Notes: a model not told the origin generated them from the letters alone. A DNA stretch of 64,000 nucleotides from Antedon mediterranea (GCF_964355755.1 NC_092679.1:2758201-2822200); one strand, 5' to 3'; counted from the stretch's first letter, positions 3,501 through 34,768 are shown. Program-made: numbers and translations.

Positions 3501-6500
3501 GAACAATCGACAACCGAGCTGTCGACTACCAAGCCATCGACTACAGTCGAGCCATTGACTACAGAACAATCGACTACAGAACCGTCGACTACCGAGCCAT
3601 CGACTACCGAGCCATCGACTACAGAGCCATCGACTACCGAGCCATCGACTACCGAGCCGTCGACTACCGAGCCGTCGACTACCGAACCGTCGACTACAGA
3701 ACCGTCGAGTACAGAACCGTCGAGTACAGAACCATCAACTACCGAGCCGTCGACTACAGAGCCGTCGACTACAGAACAATCGACAACCGAGCTGTCTACA
3801 GTCGAGCCATTGACTACAGAACAATCGACTACAGAACCGTCGACTACCGAGCCATCGACTACCGAGCCATCGACTACCGAGCCGTCGACTACCGAGCCGT
3901 CGACTAACGGAGCCGTCGACAACGGAGCCGTCGACTACAGAACAACATGTTTATGTCTAACAACTGATTCACTAACCACTGAGCCATCGACTACTGAGCC
4001 ATCAACTACTGAGCCAGCGACTACTGAGCCATCGAATACCGAGCCATCGAATACCGAGCCACTGATTACAGAGCCATCGACTACAGAGCCATCGACTACA
4101 GAGCCATCGACTACAGAGCCATCGACTACAGAGCCATCGACTACAGAGCCATCGACTACAGAGCCATCGACCACTGAGCCATCGACCACCGAGCCATCGA
4201 CTACAGAGCCATCGACTTCAGAGCCGTCGACTACAGTCGAGCCGTCGACTACAGAGCCGTCGACTACAGAGCCGTCGACTACAGAGCCGTCGACTACAGA
4301 GCCGTCGACTACAGAGCCGTCGACTACAGAGCCGTCGACTACAGAGCCGTCGACTACAGATCCGTCGACTACAGAGCCGTCGACTACCGAACCGTCGACT
4401 ACCGAACCCTCGACTGCCGAACCATCGACTGCCGAACCATCGACTATCGAAGCATCGACTACGGAACCATCGAATAAGTCTAAGTCATCAGAAAAAGTCT
4501 CAACGACTGAGCCATCTCAATCCTCGACGATTGAGCCATCGACAACTCCAGTATCAATTTCTAGGAGTGTCACGACCGTTTTGTCACTAACACCTTGTGA
4601 ATGTGGTTCAACAGCAGAAACTGTAGTTTGTATGTTTAACAGTCAAGTTTACAATGCAGGTGATGAAAGGTTTGAAGAAGAAGGATGCAATACGTGGTAA
4701 GTTTAAACTAAAACATTATAAAAATGTGTAAATTAAAATGTATGTCATAGGCTTAAGGGGCATTCCCACCTGTTTACTGTCACATGAAAATCGAATAATC
4801 CTTAAACGTACACATAGACTATGTTTAACAACGACATTATGTTATTGACATATTAACTCTCTTGCTAAAATTGGAGTATCAAAGTTAAATCTAAATAAAG
4901 GTTCGAATTTGTATCATCATACGCATTGGCCTGATTTTGTAACGCACACGCCGGCTAATGTCTCAAGAAAAGGCCATATACATGGTTGTATAGTCGCGTG
5001 CTCAAGTTAGTGTTTACCGACCGACCGACCAAAAGGGTACTCAATAAAAGTTTCAAATAAACCTACCAAAAATGTAGTCAACTTCGCACAACGTTTTTTT
5101 AAAATTATTTTATTTTGATATTCTTCTTTTTTACCCCAAATAGTACCTGCAATACTGGAAAATGGGAGTGTACTGATATAGGCCTAGACTGCCAAGGTAA
5201 GGTTAAACACAAACCAAAATCAAACTTAAGCTGGATTCCCACTAGAACGTAACGCAAAGACGTAAACGCAACGCAAGCGTTTTAACCAATGACAAGCGAA
5301 GTTATAGAGAGTTAGCAATCACAAGCGAATAAGCCATCGTTTGTGATTGGTCAATTCACTTGCGTTGCGTTACGTCCTTGCGTTGCGTCGCTAGTGGGAA
5401 CCACGTTTTACTGACAAACAAATTGATTACAATACAATTTATGTATTATCTATGTTTTTTATTTTCCATATATGGACACCTTCTCAACATTTAGACAAGT
5501 GAGTATTAATTTGTTTATATTAAATTAGAATATCTTAATTATTATTCTATTACAATATAAAATAATTAATATAATATAGCAGGTTTATTTTGTAGCATAT
5601 GTATTTATGTTTGTAGTAGGTTTAAATTTATAGCTGGTTTATTTCTGTAGCATATTTTAAATGTTTATAATTCTAGTGTAGCATACTTCACCGTAAAAGC
5701 CTGTTTTCCTGTCGATGTTGTGATACCGATAGCGAGTACCTTTTCCTGTAAATCGTTAGCATTTCAATGTTTACGTAGAAGATCGCCGATTATTGTTAAC
5801 GATAGCGTCGAATAACGTCGACAGGAAAACAGGTTTAAATTGAAATAAGGATTTCGTAGCTACAACTTTAGTAGCAACGACTTTTGTAGCAACACCTTTT
5901 GTAGCATACACTAAATGATATCTACTTTTACAATGCAGAACTGTTGTCCAGATGAGCTTTACCCTGAACTTAACCTTCAGCACTATTGCAAATGATATCG
6001 AAGAGTTCAAAACGTAAGTGGACGCTTCCATAATGCTTGGTTCCCACTAGAACGTAACGCAAGGACGTAAACGCAACGCAAGCGTTTTAACCAATGACAA
6101 GCGAAGTTATAGACAGTTAGCAATCACAAGCGAATAAGCCATCGCTTGTGATTGGTCAATTCACTTGCGTTGCGTAACGTCCTTGCGTTGCGTCGCTAGT
6201 AGTGGGAACCACTACAGTAGAACGCAACACAGCGACGTATTGACCTAAAGTGCCGTATAGCGCAATCACAAGTGGGAACCGACGACACAACAGTACTGCA
6301 AACATCGCATGTTTGATTTCACGCAGGCGGAGGCAAACACAATTATTGTAAGGGCATTTGCTTACGTTGCGTAGGTTGCGTTACGTTGCGTCGCTAGTGG
6401 GAATCAAGTTTTAGATCCAACTTCATTTCTTTCAATTCTGACGGAATACAACAAGTTTTCAAGTTATATAATACAATTCAGTAATTGTTTCAATTTATTT

Positions 6501-8616
6501 TACAGTTTCATTGTAGGTCAATTATCTACAACGTTTGGCGTTGGAATAAATACTTTTATAGATGTACAGGTAAAAAAGACATTTTGGTTCAACGTTTTTA
6601 ACGAAATTGAGGAGAGAACTTGAAAGCAAATAGAAAGTTTCCAAATTCTTATGTGAACCATGGGTCTATAAAGTTAGATGTTATGATGTATCTACACATA
6701 TTTTAATATGTGTAGATACATCATTTAAAAATGGTCTTAGTTACTTGGTTATGTTTAGTTCTTCTAAATTTTATATTTTCGTTTTGTAGATACGCGAAGG
6801 TAGTGTTATTGTTGAATTCAAGCTTATTGATAATGATGATGAGGACATAAATGTTGAAGAAGTAGCTACTAAGATGTTTGAAGAGGTAATAATAATGATA
6901 ATGATAATGATGGTGATGACGATGACGACGACGATGATAATAATAATGATAATCTTCTATAGTAAATTGAAAAAGAAGAATAATGAATTTACTTTTGCGG
7001 TACCATAATATGTTTCTAAAAACGAAATAAAGTTGAGTATGTCTGGAGTAATAGTTGTAGCATCACAACATAAACACAGCAACTCGCAACCTAATTTATT
7101 TCTTATTATATTATATCTTACAACAGATAAGTACAGTATACTTCACAGGTATTTTTCGGTGACGTTTTTTAAAGGAAATTCGTACAACTCGTATAAAACA
7201 TTTAACTGTTTCTTGGTTTTCCGTGATTGTAATATATTGTAATGTTAAGTATGATGATGAATACAATATTTTCTTTCTGATATAGTTACCTTTCGTTACC
7301 ATCGAATACAACAACCAAAGTATACCTGTCATTAGTGTTGACGATCCAGAGATCATTTACCGCCCTACGATTACAACAAATAAAATGACAACAGATTCAC
7401 CACAAGAGTCACCTGCTGATGATGATGGCAACAACACAGCGCTTATACTAGGATTAATTTGTGTGGCTATTGTAATTGTGGTTGGAATAGTATTAGTGTT
7501 TTATATAGTAAGTGTTTGAATATATTCTATAAATCTCACATGAGCACATTGTATGGTTGTTTAACTGCCCCCACACTTTAATATCTCTATCCTTTGAAAA
7601 CACGTTACCAAATCTGCACACAAATCGCCAATCTTTGAATTGATTGCGTTTTAAAATAACTACCGTATGTTAACCCGTATAGTAAATTTAGATTGAAACC
7701 TTGGCGAATTAGTCGACTATTAAAGTTCAATGAATGTCGTCTTAAACTCTGACTACACTATCAAACTAGTTTGACAAAAAAAAGTGTGATGTGCCCAAAT
7801 ATGTTAGTGATATGACATTATCATGTCCATATATGGACACATCACATTTGTTGCCATATAAAGTTTGAAGGTGTAAACAGAGCTTTAGGTATAATTGTAC
7901 CATGGAGTAGAATTTTACCGTGTAAAGGGTCCTTCATTGTGCATATAGTACATTGTATTAAAATCTTTTGCATAAAATCACCAAACTATATTAATGTTTT
8001 TAGGAACGTAAACGGAGAAGCAACGTATCAATTAAACAAGATACAGCGAACCTACCAGTAAGTAATTGATTTAGTGTTTTAATATAAAATATGCTTTTTT
8101 AAAAGAGTTATACCACCTTATTGATTACACCATTTCTATCTCATCCGTTTCTCAACGTTATCAGTTTCTACTTTTTTAAAAGAGCATTCTCCGTTACTGC
8201 TCCTCGTCTGTGGAATGCTCTACCGAGCTCTATAAGATTTTGCAAAACTGTTGATACTTTTAAAAAATTATTAAAAACACATTTATTCATTAAGGCATAT
8301 GGAAATCATGAGGTTTCTTAAAGTTGTTTAGACTTAGAATTGTTTTGTATACCTTTTCCTGGCCAGCATTATCTTTGGGGTGCCTCTGTCTTGGTTGTTG
8401 TCTCTGAGCACCCGGTCGTCTGTGGCAAGGCAAATGTGTATCCTGCTCCTTTGTTTGGTCACCTAGGTAGGGGTCCGGGACCGCGACAGAACGACAACGG
8501 ATGGGGACCCTCCAAAGAAATTGCATTTTATTTGTCAGGAATTTGTATGATTTATTTCTTTTTTATTTTTAAATGCGCCTTGAGCACTCTGGAGTGGTAT
8601 GTGCGCTATAAAAATC

Positions 8617-8647
<31 letters not shown>

Positions 8648-11075
8648 TTGGTTGTCTCGCCTATCGGGCTTCCATCAATACCGTTCCGGATTACATCAGT
8701 CGCATGTTAACCAGGACTCAGCCCGGAGGTCGACCTACTACCAGATCCATCTCTAATTGTAATTATATTATTCCTCGACCTTCTTTAGAGATTTTTAAAC
8801 AATGTTTCAGTTATAAAGCGCCTATGTATTTTAATATCACCCGATTCTGCTACTGTCAATAGGTATGTATCTGTATAACTATCACCTAGGGACAGTAGCA
8901 GAATCGGTTGTAATATGATTCCTAACATCATTCGACAATCTGAAAATGTTATTTCCTTTAAACGTGAACTTAAACAATTTATTTCCAGTTAATATTGTTC
9001 GTACTATGTATATATATATATATATTTTTTCATTTGTCAACGATTTTAACTTTTATATGAATTTTATATAATCATTGTAAATTTTTAAGCCTTTAATATA
9101 TTTTATGTCATTTGAATATTTAATATTTTATGTGTTGTACTGTATGTATGTTTTATCGAGGGCCCTGAATGATCAGTTCTATTAGGAACTGGATAGGCTA
9201 CCCTCAGTAAATATGGTAATAAATAAATAAATAAATAACCAATCAGAGGTAATTAATTAAACAATAAAGTGCGCATGAGCCCAATCACAACGAAACAATG
9301 TTTCCTTCAGATCAAATGTTAACAAAATAATCGGTTACTTTTTTTCGAGCGGAATCTGGTAAATCCCGGCAGTTGATCGTTTATTATATGGCTGCGGGAA
9401 ACACGGCCTTGCACGCAACGCAATTACGTATGAACGCCGCAAGTAATTTAATCATCAAACTATAATAATAACTAAACGCTAAACATTGTTTTTAATATTT
9501 GTTTCAGAGGGAAGCTGAAGCAGGCGAAGTTGAAATGGTAAAATAACATGTTATCATTTATTCTGTTAAATATATTAAATGATCCGTGACGACAAAGATA
9601 TGATAAGGTGCCAAAGACTATAGTTATTGGCAACGTGACGCGATGACGTGTAACCAATGACTTATGATATTAGTAATGTAATAATGTGTTTTTTTACAGG
9701 TACAGAATGACAGTAATGTAAAGGTAAACAGTACAGATACATTAATATGATACATTAATATTAAGCCTATCGTCGTACAATATAAAAATCTTTTTGTAAT
9801 TTATGTTATTAGTCTATAAATTGAAAAATATGGTTTTTTTTATGCAGAAAGTTGAGAACGAATATGTAAACACAGTTGCTGTTGTAGATGTAATTGCTAT
9901 GGTAAGTTTCCATATTCAGAAGACAAGGCATGTAAGGCGTTCATGCGAACAGGTAGCTTAGTAAAGCTTGGTTCCCACTAGAACGTAACGCAAGGACGTA
10001 AACGCAACGCAAGCGTTTTAACCAATGACAAGCGAAGTTATAGACAGTTAGCAATCACAAGCGAATAAGCCATCGCTTGTGATTGGTCAATTCACTTGCG
10101 TTGCGTTACGTCCTTACGTTGCGTCGCTAGTGGGAACCACGCTTGTAGGGTGTCACTGCCAACTCAACTAACGCACGCAAATAAACCAACCCATAAACGA
10201 TGGATTATTCGAATGTCGCCCTGTCATGTTGAGCTTAAGATGTCATTGTGTTTCGTCCTACCTAGTGGGAACCAAGCTTAAAAACGCCAACGACTGCATA
10301 AAGCATGGTTCCCGCTAGAACGCAACGCAGTGACGTATCGACGCAAAGTGCTGTATTGCGTAATCACAAGGGCATTTTCTTAGGTTGCGTAGATTGCGTT
10401 ACGTTGCGTCGCCTGTGAGAACCAAGCTTTAGTGGGAACCAAGCTTAAAAACGCCAACGACTGGAGTACAATCGACGCCGTGTCAACTTCTATCTACAAA
10501 TATAGATATACTTTTCCGAGAAATCCTTTGTCGACCGCGACAGTGATTTTAATAGTTATTGACGTCACGATTTTGTTTTTATTGTTTACAGGAAGAAAAG
10601 GAAAAAAACCCCGAGGTAATTGCCGTAAATTAGAAGTAGTAGCAACTTTAGGCCTAGGCCTTGATGTTCATTTTATATAGGGGTGTATGAAAAAGTTAAA
10701 TGGCATGTTATTACTGTACATTATATTTGATAAAACTAATTTTGTCTTTTGCAGGAGAGTCATGAGGAGAAACCTGTAGATGAAAAGTTTACAGAGGTAT
10801 GGTAGTAAATTTGAAAGTACCGTAGTTAATCATAAAACAGTTTTGTTTGCAATGCTATGTATGGACAAATTAAATTCAAAGTTATTCCATTATATTTGAT
10901 AAAACTCCTTTTTTCTTTTGCAGGAGAATACCGTACAGGAGACTTTTACAGAGGTATTGTAGTAAATTTAAATATACCGTAGTTAATCATAAATATGTTT
11001 TGCAATGCAAATTACAGAAAAAACTATAAAAATATGATTAACCTTCAATTATATTTTCAGAGTTCGGAAATTTGA
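594..11075 (+). CDS. Gene A: type I transmembrane mucin-like protein (signal peptide, VWC-like module, furin site, TTEPS mucin stalk, VWC-like module, SEA domain, TM, tail with one YxN motif)
   Basis: Phase-consistent GT-AG exons: 594-636 (MLPFMLLILLELLI), 1450-1555, 1897-1943 (CTCIDLRWECTKLACP), 2710-4696 (RKSRIKR, TTEPS repeats, CECG..CMFN..CNT), 5144-5196 (CTCNTGKWECTDIGLDCQ), 5495-5498, 5939-6013, 6506-6569, 6790-6885 ([10 protein letters not shown]), 7286-7507 (TM LILGLICVAIVIVVGIVLVFYI), 8004-8057 (ERKRR), 9700-9723, 9848-9901 (ENEYVNT), 10592-10615, 10755-10796, 10924-10953, 11061-11075 (SSEI*). Exon homology to genes B-D supports the model. Confidence 0.85.
2752..4470 (+). repeat. Coding 15-bp tandem repeat (TTEPS) of gene A, with higher-order blocks
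   Basis: Unit tcgact ac(c/a) ga(g/a) cc(a/g). The marker block [21 protein letters not shown] recurs about every 300 bp. Confidence 0.97.
5228..5408. mobile_element. MITE family 1 (~180-bp palindromic element, termini aagcttggttcccactag..ctagtgggaaccaagctt); representative copy
   Basis: Near-perfect internal palindrome. Further full or partial copies near 840-980, 1240, 6034-6410, 9963-10446, 11450-11628, 17755, 19727, 23037, 26135, 26524-26670, 31069, 32360, 33546-33711, 52810-53050 and 62720-62902. Confidence 0.9.
8180..8646 (+). mobile_element. LINE 3' end fragment
   Basis: RAFSVTAPRLWNALPSSIR..TFKKLLKTHLF is a typical CR1/L2 ORF2 C-terminus, followed by a UTR and a (TTA)n tail. Confidence 0.75.
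8700..9238 (+). mobile_element. Second LINE 3' end fragment, interrupted by a small inverted-repeat insertion (8841-8908)
   Basis: YIIPRPSLEIFKQCFSYKAP..SFKRELKQF-like C-terminus and an (AAAT)n tail. Confidence 0.55.
9963..10446. mobile_element. Cluster of MITE family 1 copies
   Basis: One full copy at 9963-10143 plus nested partial copies. Confidence 0.85.
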
Positions 11076-12820: not shown

Positions 12821-15800
12821 ATGACATCTTCATTGCCTACTGTACGTTGCTGTAATAGCATCTCATCATTATCATCTTTTGTGCTGTTTCCGTTATTTGA
12901 AATGCTGATACGTAAGTTAAATGATATTTATAGGGTATCCTTCTAACAGAAACCCATTACTGATGCCAAATGTTCGGTAATCTTATCATTGTAGTGTTTT
13001 TGACTAATGGGATATTCAATGAAGTGTATTCATATCTTCCCGATACTCGAATATCAGCCACAAATAATATAATGCGCCCCACGCGTGTACTTTATGTTCG
13101 CTGCGTTTCTTTTACAAAAATATAAAGCAGTTATTTACGAGTCATACAGGTAGACGATAGACTTACAGACCGATAGAACATCTTCATATGCACCCGGGTC
13201 AATGAAGGAGATTTTGAAATTGATGGCGAATCAATTGAATGACAAAACAGAGCGTGCATTAAATGTATTTTTTTTAACCAACAGTAAGAAAATCGAGAGT
13301 TAACAGATCTTTAATTGTTTCAACTTGTTTGTTTGTAATAACAAGCCAACTAATAGCGACTACTGAAACATTTACAACTGAACCACCAACTACAGAACCA
13401 TCTACCACTGAACCACCAACTACAGAACCATCTACCACTGAACCACCAACTACAGAACCATCTACCACTGAACCACCAACTACAGAACCATCTACCACTG
13501 AACCACCGACTACAGAACCATCTACAACTGAACCACCAACTACAGAACCATCTACAACTGAACCACCAACTACAGAACCATCTACAACTGAACCACCAAC
13601 TACAGAACCATCTACAACTGAACCACCAACTACAGAACCATCTACCACTGAACCACTAACTACAAAACCATCTACCACTGAACCACCAACTACAGAACGA
13701 TCTACCACTGAACCACCAACTACAGAGCTATCTACCACTGAACGACCAACTACAGAACCATCTACCACTGAACCACCGACTACAGAAGCATCTACCACTG
13801 AACCACCAACTACAGAACCATCTACCACTGAACCACCGACTACAGAGCCATCTACCACTGAACCACCAACTACAGAGCCATCTACCACTGAACCACCGAC
13901 TACAGAAGCATCTACCACTGAACCACCAACTACAGAATCATCTACCACTGAACCACCAACTACAGAACCATCTACCACTGAACCACCGACTACAGAACCA
14001 CCTACCACTGAACCACCGACTACAGAGTCATCTACCACTGAACCACCGACTACAGAGTCATCTACCACTGAACCACCGACTACAGAACCATCTACCACTA
14101 AACCACCGACTACAGAACAATCTACCACTGAACCACCAACTACAGAACCATCTACCACCGAACCATCTACCACCGAAATACCGACTACAGAACCATCTAC
14201 CACTGAACCACTAACTACAGAACCATATAATACTGAACCACCAACTACAGAACCATCTACCACTGAACCACCAACTACAGAACTATCTACCACTGAACCA
14301 CCAACTACAGAACCATCTACCACTGAACCACCGACTACAGAACCATCTACCACTAAACCACCGACTACAGAACCATCTACCACTGAACAACAAACTACAG
14401 AACCATCTACCACTGAACCGCCAACTACAGAACTATCTACCACTGAACCACCAACTACAGAACCATCTGCCACTGAACCACCAACTACTGAGCCACCAAC
14501 TACTGAACCACCAACCACAGAACCACCGACAACTGAACCAACTACAGAACCATCGACTACTAGACCAACAACCACCAAACCAACAACTACCAAACCATTG
14601 AGTACAAAACCATCGACTACCAAACCATCAACTAAAACAGGCCTAGCAATAGGATCAGCAGCTACTTGTGTTGTAATTGTGGTTGGAATAGTCTTAGTAG
14701 TTGTTTATATAGTAAGTATTCGACTACAGATTTTCTTCAAATAATTCTCACATGATGTATTGTTGACCAACCAACCTACCAATCACAGTATCCTACAATC
14801 CTTTTTATCATTAAGCATGAACATTAAGATAATCTGTAAAAAACACTTATTTGTTTTGTAGAAACGTCGTAAGAGGAAACCCAAAGAATCTAAACAAGAT
14901 ACAGCTAACCTACCAGTAAGTGATATAGTATAATTATGTATTTAATTCACAGGGTAAAACAAATTGTTATAAGGATAACTATTGAACCCCAACATTAATG
15001 CAACCTTTTAAATGTGTTTTTGTTGTTTCAGATGTATACTGAAACAATTGAAGCTACGGTAAAATGTTGTTATTGTTTATTTTTATGATTTATGACAACT
15101 TAAATGACCTGATCAGGATAATATGAAGACGGTGTCCACAACAAAGAGGCGATGACGCCAATAGCGACAATGACGTTTCTTATTACTACTAGACGGGATG
15201 ACAGTGTTTGGTTACCACTACGCCATGACGCCACGCATATGACGTTAACGCAACGCAATGACGTAAAGATAATATGTCTACACTAGTTCAAGTTCAAGTT
15301 CAAATTTATTCACATAATGCAAACATATACAAAATATAAAAGATACAAGTGGTTGGAAATTAAGTAAATAATAGTTGCATTATGCCTGGAGAATACCATT
15401 TAAACCCCAAGGGGCTTTAAGCCTGGATCCACCAGAAAGAATAAAAAAGTTAAAAATAATAATAATAAGCAAAGTGAAGGTACGCTACTGACAGACAGGG
15501 ACGGACATGTACGACGATACAAACACGACAAGGACGACAGGAAGGACAAACTGTATTTATATGAGTTGCCTAATTAAATTTAATTATAAGTTATTAATAT
15601 GATCAAAATAATTAATTTACTTTATATTTTGATATTAGATAAGATTTGTAGTTTATTTTTAGAGTATTATTTGTTTTGCTATTAGTTATTGACGGATTAA
15701 GAGAGTTCCAAAGTAGGGGACCGGTATGTAGTATAGAGTTAAGTATTTGCTTACTGCTATAGTTTTTGGAAATGTAGTTGTTTGCGTTCCTAGTGTTATA

Positions 15801-18800
15801 TTTGTGTAGTTCGTTATTTTTAGTGAAGAAACCGTTGAAAGTGGATGGTAGTTTGTTATTTGAGTACCTAAACATGAAGAGGGCAGTTTGCAATTTATTA
15901 ATGTCAAAAATGTTTAGGGTATTTAGGGTGTGAAAAAGAGGTTTAGAGTGGGAGAGGTATTTTGAGAGAGTGCAAATGCGAAGGGCCTTTTTTTGGAGTT
16001 TGAAAAGTTTGTCTATTTTGGTTGTTTCCGTGCTGGTCCATGGACAGAGAGTTCGATGTTTTGAGTTAGTGGCTGCCCATGCAATGTTGTAGTAAGAGAG
16101 ATGTGGAAGTATTAGAGTATTATATAAAGAAAAAAGGATGTTAGACGGAAGAGTGAATTTAAGTTTATTTAGTATGCCAATAGTTCTTGAAATTTTGTTT
16201 GATATGTTATTAATATGGAGATTCCAGTTCAGTTTATTATCAATAATTACACCAAGAAAATGGGTGTGGTCGACTGGTTTGATGGGTATATTATCGATAT
16301 AGATATTTGTATTTGTAGCATTATTATTGTTTTTATTTCCGGAAAAGTGAATGTAATTTGTTTTGCTGATGTTTAGTGAAAGCTTGTTGATTTTAAACCA
16401 GTTTGAAACGTTTCGGATTTCTCGGTTGAAAGTTTGAATTAAAGTGTTAGGATCTGGGCTGGAGAGAAAGATATTAGTGTCATCTGCAAATAGAACATAA
16501 GAGAAATAGTTTGAGGCGTAAATCAGATCATTTATGTAGATTAGGAAGAGAAGGGGACCAAGAATAGAACCTTGAGGAACGCCACATTTAACAGGAAGGA
16601 TGTCAGAGGAGTGAGAATTAAAAGAAGTGAATTGCATTCTGTCTTGAAGGTAGTTAGTAATTAGGGATAAAGGAATTCCACGGATGCCATAGTGGCAAAC
16701 TAGTTTGACAAAAAAGTGTGATATGGCCAAATATGGTAGTGATATGACATCATCATGTCCATATATGGGCACATCACATTCTTTTGTTACATAAAGTTTG
16801 AGCTAAACAAATAATTTGACGAAATTATCAATCAATCAATCAATCAATCAAAGTAACGTTTATTTCTCTTCTTCTCTTTCATAGAATATAAAAATTAACA
16901 GTAAATATGATTAAAATAAGAGGGGCGACATTCAAACAATTAAACAATACAACATTATTGATATTAATTATAACATTTATTATGTTTTGATCTTTTACAG
17001 AAAGAAGAAAATGAATATGATACAATTGATACGGTATTTTTTTTAATTTTCAACATATAGTCTAGAAGAATAGCATTAATTAAATGTGTGATAGGTTTGC
17101 CAAATCTGTGTAACCCAGTGGGCTTCTGCGCGAATGTACCCACTCTGAAACAATCGATTGATTTGATTGTTGTCTCAGACCCAATGTATAATAACTAGTG
17201 ATTATTATGAGTATACAGATACAGATTCCTTTTCATATCCAATATAATGGAAATTATGTTTTTTTTTTACAGAAAGATGAGAACCAATATGTAAATACAT
17301 CTGCTGTAAATGAAATTAATATGGTAATTATTTTCAATATAAATATTGTCTAAAAGTATGCATAGAAAATAAAGCAATTTGACAGCAGCATCAGCGAATG
17401 CACCAAATGTAGATTGACAATGTAGACAGTAATTCACAAGCAATTCGTATGGTTATGTTTTTGTCTTTTTTTCACAGCATGATGAGAACCAATATGCTGT
17501 TGTAGATGAAATTGCTATGGTAAGTTTGGTTACCATAATCAAATCGGTGTTGAGTAAAGCTCTATCTACACTATCAAACTTTATGTGACAGCAAAATGTG
17601 ATGTGCCCATATTTGGACATGATGATGTTATATCACTACCATATTTGGGCACATCACTACCATATTTGGGCACATCACTACCATATTTGGGCACATCACT
17701 ACCACATTTGGGCACATCACACTTCTTTTGCCAAACTAGTTTGACAGAACTTTAAGCTTGGTTCTCACTTGGACGCAACGCAACAATGTGTTGTTGCATT
17801 ATCGTCGTCGTCAGCACAGCGTAAACAATTTGACCAATCACAAGTCACAACCGTTTGGATGATTGGTCAAATTAATTGCGGCGCGCGCGTCCTTTGGTTT
17901 CCGCGTCTACTGTACCTAACTAAGACATAGTCAATTATTGACTATGCTTATGATTAACAGTATTGGTCTTGTTTTGTTCTTTTACATAGAAAGATGAGAA
18001 CCAGTATGCTGCAGTATATGACATTCCTATGGTAAGTTTTTTTTCTTTTACCTAAACGTATTCAATGCTGTACCAGCAAGTTTTAGAGTTTGATATATCG
18101 AGTCGCGGAAGCAATATGTATTTTCGTTGTTTTCATTTCCATATCATTGTGTCAATAAAAGTAGTTACTACGACATATTTCTAAAAACTTGATCAACAAG
18201 CAAACATTTATAATTTGTAAAGTTTCTTCTTTTTCTTTTTTTTACAGAAAGAGAAGACGATTCCCGAGGTAAGGCTTAAGTTATAGTGCAACACTAATAT
18301 CTCAACGTATTGAAGTTAGCAATGCTTATTTCATTAAAAAAATTAGGCATACAAAAATTTAATTTTAAACAACACTGCCATCAAATAAAACTAAATGATA
18401 CAGTAGTATTTTTTGTCTTTTTATAAAGGCCTACACTTTTTTTTCAAATTACAAACAAAATATAAAATGTTTAAAAAAAATAATTTTTGTTATTTTTTAT
18501 ACGATTTGAAATACAATAAAATAGAACTATAAACTAAAAAATTCATCCTAGAATATTGTTGATGATGATGTTGATTAAAAAAATGAAAATGGTACCGGTA
18601 AATCGAAAACGGTGCCTGTAAACCGAAAACGGTGCCGGTAAACCGAAAACGGTGCCGGTAAACCGATAACGCTGCCGGTAAACCAAAAACGGTTGTCAAG
18701 AAATAGAACAACTGTATAACGAAATGGGAATGTAAAATACGGTGATAATAATTTCACCCTCAATTATATTTCAGAATGTGGCCGTACAAGACGAATCAAA

Positions 18801-18846
18801 GTTGTACATTAACATTAAACCCTCAAAGACGAGACGACCCAAATAA
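12821..18846 (+). CDS. Gene B: transmembrane mucin-like protein without VWC/SEA, with a multi-tyrosine cytoplasmic tail
   Basis: Exons 12821-12911 (start uncertain, signal peptide degenerate), 13285-14711 ([17 protein letters not shown] repeats fused directly to TM), 14862-14915 (KRRKRK), 15032-15058, 17001-17033 (ENEYDTI), 17273-17323 (ENQYVNT), 17478-17519 (ENQYAVV), 17990-18031 (ENQYAAVYDIP), 18248-18268, 18775-18846 (LYINI..PK*). Confidence 0.8.
13375..14630 (+). repeat. Coding 30-bp tandem repeat ([10 protein letters not shown]) of gene B
   Basis: Unit aaccaccaactacagaaccatctaccactg. Confidence 0.97.
15286..16694 (-). mobile_element. 5'-truncated non-LTR retrotransposon (LINE; CR1/L2-like reverse transcriptase) in a gene B intron
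   Basis: Open RT frame with GVPQGSILGPLLFLIYINDL, LFADDT and FLGVIID, stop at 15612. The 3' UTR ends in AATAAA plus a (CTTGAA)n tail on the minus strand. Confidence 0.92.
17556..17753. mobile_element. MITE family 2 (termini aagctctgtctacactatcaaact..agtttgatagtgtagacagagctt, internal 21-bp catcactaccatatttgggca array); representative copy
   Basis: Further copies near 7743, 16695, 22092, 22860, 30514, 37724, 39631, 40601, 47770, 51022, 55533, 56096, 57370 and 63174, with a variable number of 21-bp units. Confidence 0.9.
18590..18695. repeat. 20-bp minisatellite (aaaccgaaaacggtgccggt) before the last exon; homologous arrays at 23815-23920 and 33180-33300
   Basis: Direct reading; same intron position in genes B, C and D. 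Confidence 0.9.
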
Positions 18847-20378: not shown

Positions 20379-23300
20379 ATGTTATTTTTACCATTTTTGC
20401 TGCTTATTGAACTTCTGATACGTAAGTTAAATATATTTATAGGATATACCCTCCTATTAAAGACCACTATTGGGACAAAAGGTGAAATAACTCTTATTAT
20501 TAATCTAATCTCAATCTAAATTGAAAAAAAATCCAATGAGGAAATATGTGACATTTAATATACGCGTTGCCTCGTTCTTCGGATGGGAGGTAATTCCGTT
20601 CGTCCGTGTACTTCATAGTGCACGTTAAAGATTTTTTTTAATTTTGCTTACAATAATGAATTACTAATATTATTTATTATGTACTTCATGATTTAATTAC
20701 TATCATTAAGAACCTACCGAAACATCAAAGTGTATATGTCCAACAAGTGAACCTTGGACAACCGAACTTTCGACCACCGAACCATGGACAACCCAACATT
20801 CTACCACCGAACCCTCGACCACTGAACCTTCGACCACCGAACCTTCGACAACACAACCTTCGACCACCGAACCTTCGACCACCGAACCTTCGACCACCGA
20901 ACATTCGACAACCGAACCCTCGACCACCGAACCTTCGACAACCGAACCCTCGACCACTGAACCTTCGACCACTGAACCTTCGACCACCGAACCTTCGACA
21001 ACCGAACCTTCAACCACCGAACCTTCGACAACCGAACCCTCGACCACCGAACCTTCGACAACCGAAACCTCGACAACTGAACCTTCGACCACCGAACCCT
21101 CGACCACTAAGCCTTCGACCACCGAACCATCGACAACCGAACCCTCGACCACTGAACCTTCGACTACCGAACCATCAACCACCGAACCTTCAACAACCGA
21201 ACCCTCGACAACTGAACCTTCGACTACCGAACCATCAACCACCGAACCTTCGACAACCGAACCCTCGACCACTGAACTTTCGACTACCGAACCATCAACC
21301 ACCAAAAAATGTGTATGTCCAACAACAAGTGAAACCCGAACTACCGATCCAGCTGATCCATCCGCTACAGAACCACCGACTACCAAACCATCAACTCAAA
21401 CAGGCCTAGTAATAGGATTAGCAACTACTTGTGTTGTAACTGTGGTTGGAATAGTCTTAGTAGTTGTTTATATAGTAAGTATTCGACTGCATATTTTCCC
21501 CAAATAAATCTCACATGATGTATTGTTGACCCACCAACCAACCAATCACAGTATCCTACAATCCTTTTTATCATTAAGCATGAAAATTAAGGTAATCTGT
21601 AAAAAACACTTATTTGTTTTGTAGAAACGTCATAAGATGAAACCCAAAGAATCTAAACAAGATACAGCTAACCTACCAGTAAGTGCTTTAGTATAATTAT
21701 GAAAATAATTCACAGGGCGAAACGGGGGGCGAAACGAATTGTTATAAGGATAACTATTGAACCCCAACATTAATGCGACCTTTTCAATGTTTTTTTTTTC
21801 AGATGAATACTAAAGCAATTGAAGCTACGGTAAAATGTTTTTATTGTTTATTTTTATGATTTATGACAACTTAAATGACCTAATCAGGATAATAGTTCAA
21901 GACGGTGTCCAAAACAGAGAGACGATGACGTCAATAATGACAATAACGTTCCTTATACGAAATGACAGTGTTTGGTTATCACTACGCAAGGACGTATTAA
22001 TTAACACGCAACGAAAATGACGTAAACGCAACGTAATGACGTAAACATAACGTAAATGGCGTAAACGCAACGCAATTGCGTAAATGCATGTAAAGCTCTG
22101 TCTACTCTATCAAACTTGTTTGACAAAGAAGTGTGATTTCCCAAATATGAGAGTCATATGCCCAAATATGGTAGTGATATGACATCATCATGTCCATATA
22201 TGGGCACATCACATTCTTTTGTTACATAAAGTTTGAGCTCAACAAATAATTTGACGAAATTAAGCAATACAACATTATTGATATTAATTATAACATTTAT
22301 TACGTTTTGATCTTTTACAGAAAGAAGAAAATGAATATTATGATACAATTGATACGGTATTTTTTTATTTTCAACATATAGTCTAGAAGTATAGCATTAA
22401 TTAAATGTGTGATGGGTTTGCCAAATCTTTGTAATCCCAGTGGGCTTCTGCGCGACTGGACCCACTCAACCGAGACAACAATAATCGATTGATTTGATTG
22501 TTGTCTCTGACCCAATGTAGATCGACCATTTTTAAAATAACTTTTGATTACTATGATTTTTTTCTCTTTTACAGAAAGATGAAAACCAATACGTAAATAC
22601 ATCTGCTGTAAATGAAATTAATATGGTAACTATTTTCAACATAAATATTGTCTAAAAGTATGCATAGAAAAACATTTAGCAATTTGACAGCATCAGCGAA
22701 TGCACACCAAATGTAAATTGACAATTTAGACAGTAATTCACGAGCAATTTGTATAATTATTTTGGGTTTTTTTCACAGCATGATGAGAACCAATATGCTG
22801 TTGTAGATGAAATTGCTATGGTAAGTTTGGTTACGGTAATAATCAAATCGGCGTTGAGTAAAGCTCTATCTACATTATCAAACGTTATGTGACAACAAAA
22901 TGTGATGTGCCCATATTTGGACATGATGATGTCATATCACTACCATATTTGGGCACATCACTACCATATTTGGGCACATCACTACCATATTTGGGCACAT
23001 CACACTTCTTTTGCCAAACTAGTTTGACAGAGCTTTAAGCTTGGTTCTCACTTGGACGTAACGCAACGACGTGTTGTTGCGTTGTCGTCGTCAGCACAAC
23101 GCAAACAATTTGACCAATCACAAGTCACAACCGTTTGGATGATTGGTCAAATTACTTGCGGCGCGCGCGTCCTTTGGTTTCCGCATCTACTGTACCTAAA
23201 TTATGACATAGTCAATTATTGACTATGCTTATGATTAGCAGTATTGGTCTTGTTTTGTTCTTTTACACAGAAAGATGAGAACCAGTATGCTGGAGTATAT

Positions 23301-24071
23301 GACATTCCTATGGTAAGTTCTTTCTTTTACCTCAACGAATTCAATACTGTACCAGCAAGTTTTAGAGTTTGCTATCCCGAATCGCGGAAGCAATGTCTTT
23401 TCGTTTTCATTTCATATAATAAATTGTGTCAATCAAAGTAATTACTACAACATATTTCTAAACTTGATTTTTTATTTTACAGAAAGAGAAGACAATTCCC
23501 GAGGTAAGGCTTAAGTTAGTGCAACGTTAATATTTCAACGTATTTAAGTTGGAAATGCTTATTTCATTTTAAGAATTAGGCATACAAAAATGTAATTTTA
23601 AATTACACTGCTAACAAATAAAACTAAATGTGTTATTTTTTTATCTTTTTATAAAGGCCTACACCTTTTTTCAAATTACAAACAAAATGTAAAATGTAAA
23701 AAACATATTTCATTTTTGTCATTTTTTATACGATTTTAAAAACAATAAAATAGAACTATAGACTAAAAATTCATCCTAGAATATTGTTGATGATGATGCT
23801 GAAGAAAAAAAAATTGGTACCGGTAAATCGAAAACGGTGATGGTAAACCGGAAACGGTGCCAGTAAACCGATAACGCTGCCGATAAACCGAAAACCGTGC
23901 ATGTAAACCGAAAACGGTTGTCGAAAACACGAGAAAGAGAACAAACTGGAAAACGAAAAAGGAAAATACGTTGATAGTAATTTTACCCTCATTATATTTC
24001 AGAATGTGGCCGTACAAGACGAATCAAAGTTGTACATTAACATTAAACCCTCAAAGACGAGACCCAAATAA
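20379..24071 (+). CDS. Gene C: short-stalk transmembrane mucin-like protein with multi-tyrosine tail; chimera of a D-like 5' half and a B-like 3' half
   Basis: Exons 20379-20421 (MLFLPFLLLIELLI), 20711-21474 ([15 protein letters not shown] repeats, KKCVCP, TM), 21625-21678, 21803-21829, 22321-22356 (ENEYYDTI), 22575-22625, 22779-22820, 23271-23312 (ENQYAGVYDIP), 23483-23503, 24003-24071. The frame is open throughout. Confidence 0.85.
20755..21303 (+). repeat. Coding 15-bp tandem repeat (TTEPS) of gene C
   Basis: Unit accgaaccttcgac(c/a); same codon style as gene D 27575-27805. Confidence 0.95.
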
Positions 24072-27174: not shown

Positions 27175-30100
27175 ATGTTATTTTTACCATTTATGCTGCT
27201 TATTGAACTGCTGATAAGTAAGTTAAATGTTATTTATAGGGTATACCCTCCAATTAAAGACCACTATTAGGACAAAAGGTGAAATAACCCTTATCATTAG
27301 TCTAATCTAAATCTAAATTGAATAACAAAAATCAAATGAGGAAATCATAGGCCTATGTGACGTCACTTTTAATATACGCATTGCCTCGTTCTTCGGATAG
27401 GAGGTAATTCCGTTGGTCCCGTGTACTCAATAGTTCACGTTAAAGAACTTGGTACAATATTCGAAAAGAATTTTTTGATTTTGCTTACAATAATGAATTA
27501 GTATTATTATCATTAATTACTATCATTAAGAACCTACCGAAACATCAACATGTATATGTCCAACAAGTGAACCGTGGACAACCAAACTTTCGACCACCGA
27601 ACCTTCAACCACCGAACCATGGACAACCCAACCTTGGACCACCGAACCTTCCACCACCGAACCCTCGACAACCGAACCCTCGACCACTGACCCACCAACC
27701 ACCGAACATTCGACCACCGAACCTTCGACAACCGAACCCTCGACCACTGAACCTTCGACTACCGGACCATCGACCACTGAACTTTCGACTACCGATCTAT
27801 CAACCACCAAAAAATGTGTATGTCCAACAACAAGTGAAACACTAACTACCGATCCACTAACTACCGATTCACTAACTACCGATCCATGGACTACCGGTAC
27901 ACGGACTACCGACCTATCGACAAGCAATCCGTCGACTACCGATCCGCGTATTACCGAATCATCGACAGCTGATACATCTACTACCGGTCCGACAGCTGCC
28001 GATACCACATCTGCTACCGAATCATCGACACCTGATACATCTAATACCGGTCCGACAGCTGCCGCTACCTCATCTGCTACCGAATCATCGACACCTGATA
28101 CATATACTACCGGTCCGACAGCTACCACCATCACATCTGCTACCGAATCATCGACACCTGATACATATACTACCGAACCGTCGACTACCGATACGCCGAC
28201 TACTGAACCGTCCACAACTGAACCGCCAACTACTGAAGCATCAACAACATGTTTTTGTCTAATAACAAGTGAACTTCCAACTACTGAACCATCGACTACC
28301 GATCAATCGACTATTGACCAATCGACTATCGACCAATCGACTATCGACCAATCGACTATCGACCAATCGACTACCGATCAATCGACTACAACGCAACCAA
28401 CCGGGTTTACGACGACACCATCATTAACACCTTGCGAATGTGGTTCAACAACAGAAACTGTAGTTTGTATGTTTAACGGTCAAGTTTACAATGCAGGTGA
28501 TGAAAGGTTTCAAGAAGAAGAATGCAATACGTGGTAAGTTTAGACAGTTATACAATATTAACAGTGCGAATTTATAATGTTTTTGAACATTTCTTTAACG
28601 TACGGTAAGCGAACATAAACTTAAAGATGTAGTGGCCCCAAAAACATGAAAAATAAAGGTTAATTTTAAAAAATACTTTGAATAAGCCATTTTGTGCATT
28701 TAAGCAGTTTTAATAAAGTAATATATATATATTTTAAATTTTTTGTTAAATATATATCTTAATGTTTTATAAGTGAAATCACAATTGTTTTTCCAGCTTT
28801 TTTTATGGAAGTGAATAACTTCATAATTACTGCAAAATGGCCTATTCAAAATCTGATTTTATAAATCTTTATTTTTTATCTATATATATTCATTCATTCA
28901 TCTAATTATTTAAAAAAAGTAAATTAATGTAAATGTGGTTTCTTTTTAACATCAAAATAATCTTAGCCTATATATACTGTTTAAAAGATATGTATTTTTT
29001 AGCAATGTACCTTATAAATAAGAGAAATATATAAATGTGCATATATATATATTATTATTATATTTATAACAGAGAACTATAATAAAAGTGGGACGAACCC
29101 ACAAGACAACAACAAAAATTCATTATTTTGGGGGACAATACATCTTTAAAGCAATGATATTAGTGATAATAATGATATTTTCTTATCTACGTAGTACCTG
29201 TTCAAGTGGAAACTGGATTTGTACTGATGTAAACCCAGACTGTACTGGTAAGATTAAACACAAACCACATTCTCATTTAAAAATATATATAGAGAATAAT
29301 TGTCTTATTTAGTTATAGGCCTATTTTGAAAGTAAACTAACACAAATTAAATGATGCAAAACTTTCATTAACATTTGTCACATTACATATAATTTCATAA
29401 AAATTTATTTTATTTTATTTTCCATATATTGACACCTTCCCAACGTTCAGATAAGTGAGTATTAACTATTTATTGAATTAGAATATTAGTAATAATTCTT
29501 ACATGTAGCATTTATTTTTGTAGCCTGTTTATTTTTGTAGCATGTTTATTTTTGTAGCATGTTTATTTTTGTAGCATGTTTATTTTTGTAGCATGTATAC
29601 TGAACGGGTTTATTTTGTAGTATTTTTATTTTTGTAGCATGTTTATTTTTGTAGCATGTTTATTTTTGTAGCATGTTTATTTTTGTAGCATGTTTATTTT
29701 TGTAGCATGTTTATTTTTGTAGAATGTTTATTTTTGTAGCATGTTTATTTTATAGTATGTTTATTTTATAGTATTTTATTTTTATTTTTTATTTTATTGT
29801 TTTATCTTTATACTATGTTTATTTATAGTATATTTAATGGCCAACAATAAAATGTTCTGTATAGCATACCCCAATATGAAATGATTACTTTTTTGCGACA
29901 AATGATTTGCATTGTATAACATCATTGTACTAAATAATACATTTTTGTAGCATATTTAATCTTTTATATGTAACTTTCACTACAGTACCGTTATCCAAAT
30001 GGGCCTTATCTTAAACTATAACTTCAGCGATATTGAGAACGCTACCGTGTTCATAGTGTAAGTGTACACAAATTATTATATTTTACCGGTGTTTTTAGAT

Positions 30101-33043: not shown

Positions 33044-34768
33044 CAAAAATGGTAAAATGTGTTGGTATCTATTCTAAATGATTAACAAAACCATCGGGAA
33101 ATTAATGAAAACGATGCCCACGACAAAAGAGGCGATGATGTGACAATGATATTCATAAAACTCCCCACTTTCTATGACGGTGTCGGCAAACCGAAAATGG
33201 TGCCGGCAAACCGAAAATGGTGCCGGCAAACCGAAAATGGTGCCGAAAAACCGAAAATGGTGCCGGCAAACCGAAAATGGTGCCGAAAAACCGAAACGGT
33301 CACAAAGCACGACGAGACGACAATATATCAATAAAGACAACTTGACGCAAATAAATACGGCTGTAACAATTTTACCCTCAATTATATTTCAGAGTGGATG
33401 GTGTAAGACTGGATGGTGTAAAAAGGTGGAGGGTGTACTGTATATAAATCACAGATATTAATGTATTTTCTGGATGTTTAAAACAATTTATTGTACAGAG
33501 ACGAAATTATTACCGTATAAAGACCTATTGTTCTTATATAATATAAAGCTTGGTTCCACTGGGGACGCAACGAAAGGACGTAAGCGCAGCGTAACTTGGT
33601 AATTTGACCAATCACAAGCGATGGTTTTTCCAAACTGTCACCTTTCATTGGTCAATTCGCTTACGTTGCACTTACGTCCGTGCGTTGCATCCCTAGTGGG
33701 TAGCAAGCTTGAAACTATTTTTGTACTCTTTGTATTATTTTAATATTGCGCAAGTCAAAATAGTTCTAGAAACGCTTAAGTGAAAAACTGACGCATATTA
33801 ATCAAACCAGTTTTTTTTTTCATGGATAGTAGACTTTGACCTCTGAGATTCAAGAAAAATACGAAAGTATTTGCTTATGTTATTTAAGTTAAAACTTTAA
33901 AACGTTTGATAAATTTTACGCCAGAGTCACTGATCTATTGATTTAATGTAATTTGTGTAATTTGTTTAACCTAAACTATCGCTTATTCTTCCAATACAGA
34001 CGAATGTATAGATCTGTGTTGTTTTAATTAAATGCCGCTACTGTAGTTACTAACCGTTTTCATGGTGTCCCAATGCTTTTCAACATGTTTTTCAAAACAC
34101 TTCTATTCTAATATGTCTTACACGATCATCCATACGTTCCATTGATTATAAACCATCATTTTTTTTATTCTATTGACTAAAACTTGGTTCCCACGAAGCG
34201 CACTTTTTATATTTCTAAACAATAACTGTATTTAATCATAAATCCCAAAAGACCGCATTAAGACGTCTCCCACTATTGACCAATCAGATTACAGGAATTT
34301 GTTTAGCATATAGTCTGCCGATTTTGACATCCACAAGCAGAACGCAGCAAAAAAGTGAGTAATGAACCGTTTTGAAAAACCTTATAATTGAAATACTATA
34401 AACATAATCATGATACACTTCTTATATTAAAACTGTACAGAATAATAAGCATAGGTAGATAGAGTTACTAACTAGAATATAAAACAAGAATTGTAAAGTC
34501 TAGGCCTACGGGTAGGCATGTGGTTTCCCTTGTTCTTAGCGCGCTGGTACTTAGCCTCACACGGTCTTACTCAGTCCTTGTTTGGCTTCATTATAGGCCT
34601 AGGCTAACAAGTAACATTCCATTCAAAACCAAAGCAAATTTTAATTGCAGACTTTCACGAAGTAATAAAGTGTGATGATAGTGTTGATTAGTAAACTTAT
34701 AATAATAAACAAACCTGATTAAAAGTGAATTTTATTGCAATTTATTCTTAACAGGCATAAACACAATT

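What the first reader, a model, noticed from the sequence alone, without database searches (positions are those of the whole stretch)
14862..18846. Cytoplasmic tail built from phase-0 mini-exons, most carrying one tyrosine motif: a possible splice-programmable SH2 docking cassette
Seen: the internal tail exons are 21-54 nt and all phase 0-0. Four are evident duplicates of one unit (K/H-D/E-E-N-Q/E-Y): YDTI, YVNT, YAVV and YAAVYDIP. The last exon adds YINI. Gene C has the same set (21625-24071). Established: acidic residues before Tyr suit Src-family kinases, YxN binds Grb2, YDxP binds Crk/Nck, and YxxI/V suits SHP-type phosphatases. Inference: any exon can be skipped in frame. Skipping the YVNT exon gives YDTI-x7-YAVV, an ITAM-like spacing, so splicing could rewire the output.
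Basis: partly seen in the sequence, partly recalled or inferred. Interest (0 to 1): 0.8.

Follow-up and report, generated by a model that had tools for sequence, protein, structure and literature searches.

The report
Feather-star mucin with copied tyrosine exons
Two neighbouring feather-star genes encode predicted cell-surface mucins whose inner tails are built from short in-frame exons, four of them copies of one tyrosine-bearing exon that likely dock signalling proteins as in MUC1 or PECAM-1, but the one RNA sample available shows only the all-exon form, so the proposed splicing switch remains untested.

Summary
Genes B (12821-18846) and C (20379-24071) are two of four tandem membrane-mucin genes in a feather star (neighbour gene 99% identical to Antedon mediterranea). 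Each 113-residue tail has seven internal phase 0-0 exons, four of them copies of one unit. New evidence: an RNA-like run holds two spliced contigs that together cover every tail exon of gene C. Tail exons differ between B and C at 2.7% of sites against 8.1% in introns (p=1e-4), so they are under selection. The switch idea is not supported so far. No skip joint appeared (0 of 4 contigs, one sample). None of 128 exon combinations gives a strict ITAM, ITIM or hemITAM. Paralogue A has the same phase-0 layout with a tyrosine in 1 of 7 exons. B and C are young duplicates, not independent conservation. Gene B's own mRNA was not seen. Best reading: a MUC1/LAT-like phosphotyrosine scaffold grown by exon duplication. 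Spliced multi-exon tyrosine tails are known (PECAM-1, Botryllus FcoR), and this scan met the layout before in sharks, skates and sea squirts. No orthologue was found.

The parts
12821..12911 (+). Gene B first coding exon (two possible in-frame starts, 12821 or 12902; the second would give a basic-then-hydrophobic signal-peptide-like start)
   Evidence: start not confirmed by RNA
13285..14711 (+). Gene B mucin stalk (Ser+Thr 47%, Pro 23%, 61 TTEP units) ending in the transmembrane helix; donor in phase 0
14862..14915 (+). B tail exon 1, polybasic juxtamembrane segment, no Tyr, phase 0-0
15032..15058 (+). B tail exon 2, one Tyr without acidic context; Tyr absent in gene C
15612..16802 (-). Reverse-transcriptase-bearing retroelement fragment inserted in B tail intron 2, absent from gene C
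   Evidence: Pfam RVT_1 E 5e-14
17001..17033 (+). B tail exon 3, unit copy 1 (YDTI)
17273..17323 (+). B tail exon 4, unit copy 2 (YVNT, a YxN motif); non-consensus donor GTAATT
17478..17519 (+). B tail exon 5, unit copy 3 (YAVV)
17990..18031 (+). B tail exon 6, unit copy 4, two Tyr (YAAV and YDIP)
18248..18268 (+). B tail exon 7, 21 nt, no Tyr
18775..18846 (+). B last coding exon (YINI, second YxN motif) and stop
20379..21474 (+). Gene C leader exon (20379-20421) and mucin-plus-transmembrane exon (20711-21474; Ser+Thr 52%)
   Evidence: the last 169 nt of the TM exon are inferred by length to lie on the spliced contig, and C alleles at two TM positions are seen
21625..24071 (+). Gene C tail exons: 21625-21678, 21803-21829, 22321-22356, 22575-22625, 22779-22820, 23271-23312, 23483-23503, 24003-24071; spliced all-exon form found
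   Evidence: two GT..AG joints and loose ends matching exons 2 and 6; 61 letters between exon 5 and the last exon = exon 6 + exon 7 - 2
594..11075 (+). Paralogue A: leader, two Cys-rich VWC-like modules (name recalled), mucin stalk, SEA-like module with GSVIV, TM, then seven phase 0-0 tail exons of which only 9848-9901 has a Tyr (YVNT)
   Evidence: open frame of 989 aa if a 4-nt exon at 5495-5498 is included
27175..33461 (+). Paralogue D: leader, mucin stalk, Cys-rich module, SEA-like module, TM, short Tyr-free tail stopping in exon 33023-33051; a homologous last exon at 33393 keeps a YIN motif
   Evidence: the 3' half matches the RefSeq model XP_071961919.1 = P0121

Best explanation
Genes B and C encode predicted single-pass membrane mucins whose 113-residue inner tail grew by tandem copying of one in-frame tyrosine exon and, in gene C, is found spliced with all exons included; it likely works as a fixed multi-site phosphotyrosine scaffold in the manner of MUC1 or LAT. 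Shown: exon layout, exon homology, the all-exon transcript of C, and conservation above intron level. Inferred from recalled motif rules: the glycosylated stalk meets microbes, matrix or neighbouring cells, clustering lets a Src- or Syk-type kinase phosphorylate the tyrosines that follow acidic residues, the two YxN sites bind Grb2, YDIP binds Crk or Nck, and the Yxx-hydrophobic sites bind SHP-type phosphatases or the endocytic adaptor. On this reading frame symmetry is what let the exon be copied without breaking the gene; it is not in itself a sign of regulated skipping. Signalling capacity differs mainly between paralogues: seven Tyr in B and C, one in A, none in the annotated D tail.
For: Open frames of 619 and 382 aa with one strong hydrophobic helix (mean hydropathy 2.9 and 2.7) after a Ser/Thr/Pro stalk. 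Spliced contig of 379 nt (depth 60.6) with two GT..AG joints across C exons 3-4-5, absent from the DNA-like run X4; its upstream loose end is the end of exon 1 plus exon 2. A second contig (256 nt, depth 101) runs from exon 5 into exon 6, and its length fits exon 6 + exon 7 + last exon exactly. B versus C: exons 9 differences in 339 sites, introns 170 in 2092, Fisher p=1.2e-4; the four unit exons 3 in 168, p=0.0013; 6 non-synonymous changes in 272 sites. All unit-exon and last-exon tyrosines are kept between B and C; YVN is kept in A and YIN in D's last exon. A's tail has its own duplicated phase-0 pair without tyrosine (10755 and 10924). MUC1's 72-residue tail has seven tyrosines and binds Grb2 and Src (PMC5039420, PMC6491460, passages).
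Against: No phosphorylation, binding or localisation data exist. No orthologue was found to test tyrosine conservation between species. Conservation of tiny exons can also reflect splicing signals or gene conversion; synonymous divergence (3 of 64 sites, 4.7%) is too sparse to separate these. One RNA-like sample, as contigs, cannot show that inclusion is constitutive. B's own transcript was not seen: at four diagnostic coding positions all X1 depth carried the gene C letter. B and C have no folded outer domain, so the ligand and trigger are unknown. The presence of the kinases and SH2 partners in crinoids is assumed; one paper search on this gave nothing on point.
Confidence: 0.55

Rival explanations
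1. Splice-programmable cassette: cells choose which tyrosine exons to include and so change the set and spacing of docking sites, as PECAM-1 does with its tail exons.
For: All 128 combinations stay in frame. The YDTI and YVNT exons have non-consensus donors (GTATTT; GTAATT in B, GTAACT in C), while the YAVV and two-Tyr exons have GTAAGT. Precedents are real: PECAM-1 tail exons 10-16 are alternatively spliced and loss of exon 14 changes function (PMC2132561, PMC5664058, passages); Botryllus FcoR3/4 swap ITIM and hemITAM by splicing (PMC12582321, passages). In paralogue D, skipping the 29-nt stop exon would put the YIN last exon in frame.
Against: 0 skip joints among the 4 X1 contigs laid on C exons 3-5; the main contig is unbroken from the TM exon to exon 5. 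No strict ITAM, ITIM, ITSM or hemITAM arises in any combination. The same phase-0 layout in A carries Tyr in only 1 of 7 exons.
Confidence: 0.2
2. The tyrosines serve mainly as unphosphorylated sorting signals (Yxx-hydrophobic for clathrin adaptors) that recycle the mucin for re-glycosylation or clear bound particles, with little signalling output.
For: Four Yxx-hydrophobic motifs per tail. MUC1 internalisation depends on its YHPM and YTNP sites (PMC5039420, passage). B and C lack a ligand-binding fold.
Against: The acidic run before each unit tyrosine and two YxN sites (one kept in A, one in D) fit kinase and Grb2 use better (recalled rules). Val at +3 is a weak AP-2 signal (recalled). One sorting motif would suffice.
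Confidence: 0.15
3. The tail is mostly a by-product: a repeat-rich, unstable locus copies symmetric exons that are tolerated, and most tyrosine copies have no separate role; gene B may be a decaying duplicate.
For: The locus is a young tandem array with large paralogue differences. A and D manage with one or no tail Tyr. B carries a retroelement in a tail intron, has an uncertain start, and its mRNA was not seen.
Against: Tail exons are about three times more conserved than their introns, B's frame is intact over 619 codons, and the copies have diverged after the Tyr into different motif classes that are then kept in both genes.
Confidence: 0.1

Closest known systems
MUC1 and other transmembrane mucins (PMC5039420, PMC6491460; passages read)
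   Same: Ser/Thr/Pro tandem-repeat stalk, single TM, tail with seven tyrosines including a YxN Grb2 site. Paralogues A and D have a SEA-like module with GSVIV, close to MUC1's GSVVV cleavage motif.
   Different: No sequence homology shown. B and C have no SEA module. Their tail is built from copies of one exon; I did not check MUC1's tail exon phases.
PECAM-1/CD31 (PMC2132561, PMC5664058; passages read)
   Same: Tail encoded by eight short exons (9-16) with tyrosines spread over exons 9 and 12-15.
   Different: PECAM-1 has six Ig domains, true ITIMs and documented skip isoforms. Here the outer part is a bare mucin, no ITIM is present, and no skipping was seen.
Botryllus schlosseri fester co-receptors FcoR (PMC12582321; passages read)
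   Same: Invertebrate deuterostome tandem family of type I membrane proteins with several tyrosine motifs per tail, including non-canonical YxxI/L/V cores; two genes change motifs by splicing.
   Different: FcoR are Ig-superfamily proteins with canonical ITIM or hemITAM; the reported tail variants are intron retentions with premature stops, not in-frame cassette skipping.
LAT/NTAL/LAX transmembrane adaptors (PMC3291652, PMC2196071; search listing and abstract openings only)
   Same: Multi-tyrosine scaffold tail with several Grb2 sites; YVNT resembles LAT's YVNV (the term occurs in listed papers; the resemblance is my comparison).
   Different: LAT-type adaptors have almost no outer domain and a palmitoylated Cys pair (recalled). 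Here there is a 230-450-residue mucin stalk and no Cys in the tail.
CEACAM1-related receptors (PMC2110893; passages read)
   Same: Very short cytoplasmic exons carrying tyrosine motifs; long and short tails among tandem paralogues.
   Different: There the ITAM's first YxxL is split by a phase 0 intron and the short form comes from a frameshifting 53-nt exon; here each motif lies within one symmetric exon.

Membership tests
Transmembrane mucins (MUC1 type) | Ser/Thr/Pro-rich tandem-repeat ectodomain | tested here: met
   Ser+Thr 47-52%, Pro 11-23% in the large exon of A-D
Transmembrane mucins (MUC1 type) | Single C-terminal transmembrane helix followed by a cytoplasmic tail | tested here: met
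   Best 19-residue hydropathy 2.88 (B) and 2.72 (C), followed by a basic stop-transfer exon
Transmembrane mucins (MUC1 type) | N-terminal signal peptide | tested here: inconclusive
   Hydrophobic 11-residue windows of 2.55 (B, second start) and 2.68 (C); no predictor was available
Transmembrane mucins (MUC1 type) | SEA domain in genes B and C | tested here: not met
   Stalk and TM lie in one exon with no room for a folded domain; Pfam gives only a repeat-driven Extensin hit. B and C are therefore not filed as MUC1-family members.
Transmembrane mucins (MUC1 type) | SEA domain in paralogues A and D | tested here: inconclusive
   GSVIV motif; no Pfam SEA hit; atlas top hit a SEA cluster at 0.89, a lead only; model pLDDT 64 matches a ferredoxin-like fold, best Z 7.8, rmsd 3.1, 88 aligned, to the IA-2 ectodomain, tied with unrelated proteins
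Transmembrane mucins (MUC1 type) | Dense O-glycosylation and surface location | not testable with these tools
   needs biochemistry
ITAM receptors | Yxx[L/I]-x6-8-Yxx[L/I] | tested here: not met
   0 of 128 exon combinations in B and 0 of 128 in C; consensus recalled
ITIM/ITSM receptors | (S/I/V/L)xYxx(I/V/L) or TxYxx(V/I) | tested here: not met
   0 of 128 combinations in each gene; ITIM as in PMC12582321 plus Ser, ITSM recalled
hemITAM receptors | [E/D][E/D][E/D]xYxxL (as defined in PMC12582321) | tested here: not met
   0 of 128; the YDTI exon is a near miss (acidic run interrupted by Asn, Ile at +3)
PECAM-1-type alternatively spliced tyrosine tails (design, not family) | Tail encoded by many short exons with tyrosines on separate exons | tested here: met
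PECAM-1-type alternatively spliced tyrosine tails (design, not family) | Exon-skipped isoforms exist and are regulated | tested here: inconclusive
   No skip joint in 4 contigs of one run; contigs drop rare variants
LAT-type transmembrane adaptors | Minimal ectodomain and juxtamembrane palmitoylation Cys pair (recalled) | tested here: not met
   Long mucin stalk; no Cys in the tail exons
LAT-type transmembrane adaptors | Several YxN Grb2 sites | tested here: met
   Two YxN per tail; binding not tested

The most novel reading that the evidence does not exclude
A crinoid-specific array of mucin sensors in which the tyrosine exon is the unit of variation at three levels: regulated skipping within a gene, long-tail versus short-tail paralogues (seven Tyr in B and C, one in A, none or one in D depending on a 29-nt stop exon), and haplotypes with extra tail exons. 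The last is hinted at by a junction from mid exon 4 of C into tail-intron-1 sequence, found in both runs laid, which would be a tandem duplication or a C-B hybrid gene with additional tyrosine exons. That would be a tunable, paired signalling system built on a bare mucin, without Ig or lectin domains.
Probability: 0.18. Interest if true: 0.62.

Novelty: new member of a known kind. Interest (0 to 1): 0.3.

Why it matters
It is a clean, transcribed example of a signalling tail assembled by exon duplication, with paralogues frozen at different stages (0, 1 and 4 unit copies). It shows that echinoderm membrane mucins can carry MUC1- or LAT-like multi-tyrosine tails. I found no paper on this family and no relative outside this species. 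The design itself, short tail exons with tyrosines and functional skipping, is established in PECAM-1 and has an invertebrate counterpart in Botryllus FcoR, so even proven skipping would extend a known principle and not open a new one. It would matter more if skipping or exon copy number proved to tune barrier or immune signalling in an echinoderm.

Tried and rejected
No whole genome is held, so other copies of the family and SH2 partner genes could not be searched. The run search listed 5 runs, none on record as RNA; X1 proved to hold spliced contigs. In one search the joint table was filled by intronic repeats (460 rows not shown), so it says nothing on skipping in B; parts without B-type cover are not evidence of silence. 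Homologue searches were limited to single-exon queries: A's TM exon gave 0 hits among 87 candidates and C's stalk end plus TM 0 among 96. One search also missed P0121, which shares a 13-residue run with the query, so these blanks are weak. The profile search of 1.84 billion representatives gave 2 hits: P0121 (gene D itself) and P0122, a repetitive protein matching only 27 profile positions, which I rejected as spurious. The atlas search with C's stalk end scored 0.76 at best, which is uninformative. The tail itself could not be used as a query because no tail exon reaches the tools' minimum length, so whether similar tails exist on other receptors remains open. Pfam found no family above its cut-off for any ectodomain or tail piece; Extensin_1 on the B stalk is a low-complexity match. 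No chain titled as a mucin SEA domain was among the 50 rows of the fold search; this does not exclude the family. Rejected: chance origin of the exons; opposite-strand ORFs over the stalks (mirror frames of the repeat); gene C as independent conservation; strict ITAM, ITIM, ITSM, hemITAM, NPxY, YxxM and YxxQ motifs. Paper searches with no relevant hit. No complex prediction was run.


Full report
Setting. The window is animal DNA of 28-46% GC. An exon of the downstream kinase gene is 99% identical to an Antedon mediterranea protein and 63% to Anneissia japonica, so this is a feather star. Positions 594-33461 hold four tandem genes on the plus strand, here A to D, read from the sequence and modelled. 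All four have a short leader exon, a large Ser/Thr/Pro repeat exon (Ser+Thr 47-52%) and one hydrophobic helix. A and D add Cys-rich modules (VWC-like, name recalled) and a SEA-like module with GSVIV. In B and C the stalk runs straight into the membrane helix within one exon. The 3' half of D equals a RefSeq model (P0121), which independently agrees with my exon calls there.

The observation. B's tail exons are exactly as stated: seven internal exons of 54, 27, 33, 51, 42, 42 and 21 nt, all phase 0-0 with AG/GT ends, then a last exon; the gene reads open for 619 codons. C has the same set and reads open for 382. Exons 3-6 are copies of one unit (pairwise z 4.5-10.8), and A's single tyrosine exon belongs to the same unit (z 5.5-10.9). 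Each tail has 113 residues and seven tyrosines. 'One motif per exon' is loose: two internal exons have none, exon 6 has two, and exon 2's tyrosine is lost in C while exon 3 gains one.

Are the exons used? Five runs hold the region, none on record as RNA. Laid on C exons 3-5, run X1 gave 4 contigs. One, of 379 nt at depth 60.6, covers exons 3, 4 and 5 only, with two GT..AG joints that the comparison run X4 (12 contigs) lacks. Its 249 upstream letters end in the last bases of exon 1 and all of exon 2, and their length leaves 169 for the membrane exon. A second, of 256 nt at depth 101, starts in exon 5 and continues with C's exon 6; the same record lay on the last exon, and the 61 letters between equal exon 6 plus exon 7 minus the two bases shared with the acceptor. 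So the all-exon mRNA of C exists; exon 7 is inferred from that length, not read. The other two X1 contigs are unspliced. No skip joint was listed. This is one sample of unknown tissue, and contigs drop rare variants, so it argues only against an abundant skip form there. B's mRNA was not seen: at 4 of 4 diagnostic coding positions the X1 depth carried C's letter.

Are they under selection? Between B and C the tail exons differ at 9 of 339 aligned sites and the introns at 170 of 2092 (Fisher p=1.2e-4); the four unit exons differ at 3 of 168 (p=0.0013). Non-synonymous changes are 6 in 272 sites and synonymous 3 in 64. For the long intron 2 I left out B's retroelement insertion and compared only the shared flanks; gapped columns were not counted. 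This points to purifying selection, though splicing signals in tiny exons or gene conversion could contribute. It also shows that B and C are young duplicates.

What do the motifs say? The full tails contain two YxN, one YxxP and four Yxx-hydrophobic motifs, and no NPxY, YxxM, YxxQ or PxxP. Over all 128 inclusion patterns of the seven internal exons, a strict ITAM, an ITIM, an ITSM or a strict hemITAM appears 0 times in B and 0 times in C. A relaxed ITAM allowing Val and 6-12 spacers appears in 52 of 128, including the unskipped tail. The proposed YDTI-x7-YAVV product is real arithmetic but not a canonical ITAM, and ITAM-like spacing is easy to obtain from exons of 11-17 codons. The partner assignments (Grb2 for YxN, Crk/Nck for YxxP, Src/Syk for acidic context) are recalled rules, untested here.

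Does phase 0 imply a splicing code? Not by itself. A symmetric exon is the only kind that can be duplicated in tandem without a frameshift, so its copies are skippable by construction. Counting about five independent introns gives a chance of 0.02-0.03 at a recalled 45-50% background, for a single ancestral origin shared by A-D. Paralogue A is the internal control: seven phase 0-0 tail exons, its own duplicated pair, and only one tyrosine. In favour of skipping, the YDTI and YVNT exons have non-consensus donors, and in D skipping a 29-nt stop exon would bring a YIN-bearing last exon into frame.

Mechanism. Most likely (0.55) B and C are barrier- or adhesion-type membrane mucins with a constitutively spliced phosphotyrosine scaffold: outside contact or clustering, phosphorylation by a Src/Syk-type kinase, then docking of Grb2, Crk/Nck and SHP-type proteins. 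The exon anatomy, C's transcript and the conservation are shown; every biochemical step is inferred. Rivals are regulated skipping (0.2), sorting signals (0.15) and a tolerated by-product (0.1).

Comparison with what is known. MUC1 has a seven-tyrosine tail that binds Grb2 and Src and a GSVVV SEA cleavage site (PMC5039420, PMC6491460; passages). PECAM-1's tail is encoded by exons 9-16 with tyrosines on exons 9 and 12-15, is alternatively spliced, and changes function without exon 14 (PMC2132561, PMC5664058; passages). Botryllus FcoR3 and FcoR4 swap ITIM and hemITAM by splicing (PMC12582321; passages). CEACAM tails use very short exons (PMC2110893; passages). LAT papers were seen only as listing and abstract openings. 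B and C work like these but fail the membership tests for MUC1-type (no SEA), ITAM, ITIM and LAT families. The SEA call for A and D is inconclusive: no Pfam hit, atlas lead 0.89, fold match Z 7.8 on a 64-pLDDT model. Searches for a description of this family found none. Earlier notes of this scan report the same tail layout in sharks, a skate and sea squirts, two of them with no skipping seen; I did not check those notes.

One unexplained lead. Both X1 and X4 hold a contig that follows C into exon 4 to position 22601 and then continues in sequence found only in tail intron 1 of B (14962) and C (21737). Three bases before B's copy match the exon end. This suggests a haplotype or paralogue with a duplicated block of tail exons, either 865 bp within C or a 7.6-kb C-B hybrid. 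One contig per run supports it, and it could not be followed further.

Verdict. A real, transcribed and conserved exon-duplicated tyrosine tail on an apparently undescribed crinoid mucin family. The design is known and the splicing switch is unshown. New member of a known kind; interest 0.3.

Noticed in passing
window 5495-5498 and 29451-29454: Probable 4-nt micro-exons in paralogues A and D, between the Cys-rich and SEA-like exons. Each is the only AG..GT(A/G)AG candidate of up to 40 nt in its intron, flanks are conserved, and including it restores an open frame (989 and 537 aa). The RefSeq model of D starts just after it, as if the annotation missed it. Not confirmed by RNA.
   Followed up: partly
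window 22601 joined to 14962 or 21737: Contigs in runs X1 and X4 run from mid exon 4 of gene C into tail-intron-1 sequence: a possible tandem duplication or C-B hybrid haplotype with extra tail exons.
   Followed up: partly
window 33023-33051 and 33393-33461: Gene D's second tail exon is 29 nt with an in-frame stop, where its homologues are 27 or 30 nt; skipping it would put a conserved YIN last exon in frame, a possible on/off tail switch.
   Followed up: partly
window 15612-16802 (minus strand): 396-codon open frame with an RVT_1 domain, a truncated retroelement in gene B tail intron 2, absent from gene C.
   Followed up: partly
window 11061-11126: Gene A's last exon stops after four codons in the spliced frame, while another frame reads 21 codons loosely like the B/C last exon without its Tyr: possible frameshifted remnant.
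   Followed up: no
window 17290-17296 and 22592-22598: The YVNT exon holds an internal GTAAAT right after the Tyr codon; use as a donor would give an 18-nt in-frame exon that removes the YxN motif. Not seen in RNA.
   Followed up: no
window 2712-2735: Gene A's stalk exon begins with a furin-type RIKR site, so its N-terminal Cys-rich module may be clipped off; gene B's stalk exon starts with the same acceptor sequence.
   Followed up: no
window 37200-63600: Ordinary housekeeping genes follow the array: an aarF/ADCK1 kinase and exons resembling SNW1, TBCE, an adaptor small subunit and syntaxin 5 (these four names are recalled, not tested).
   Followed up: partly
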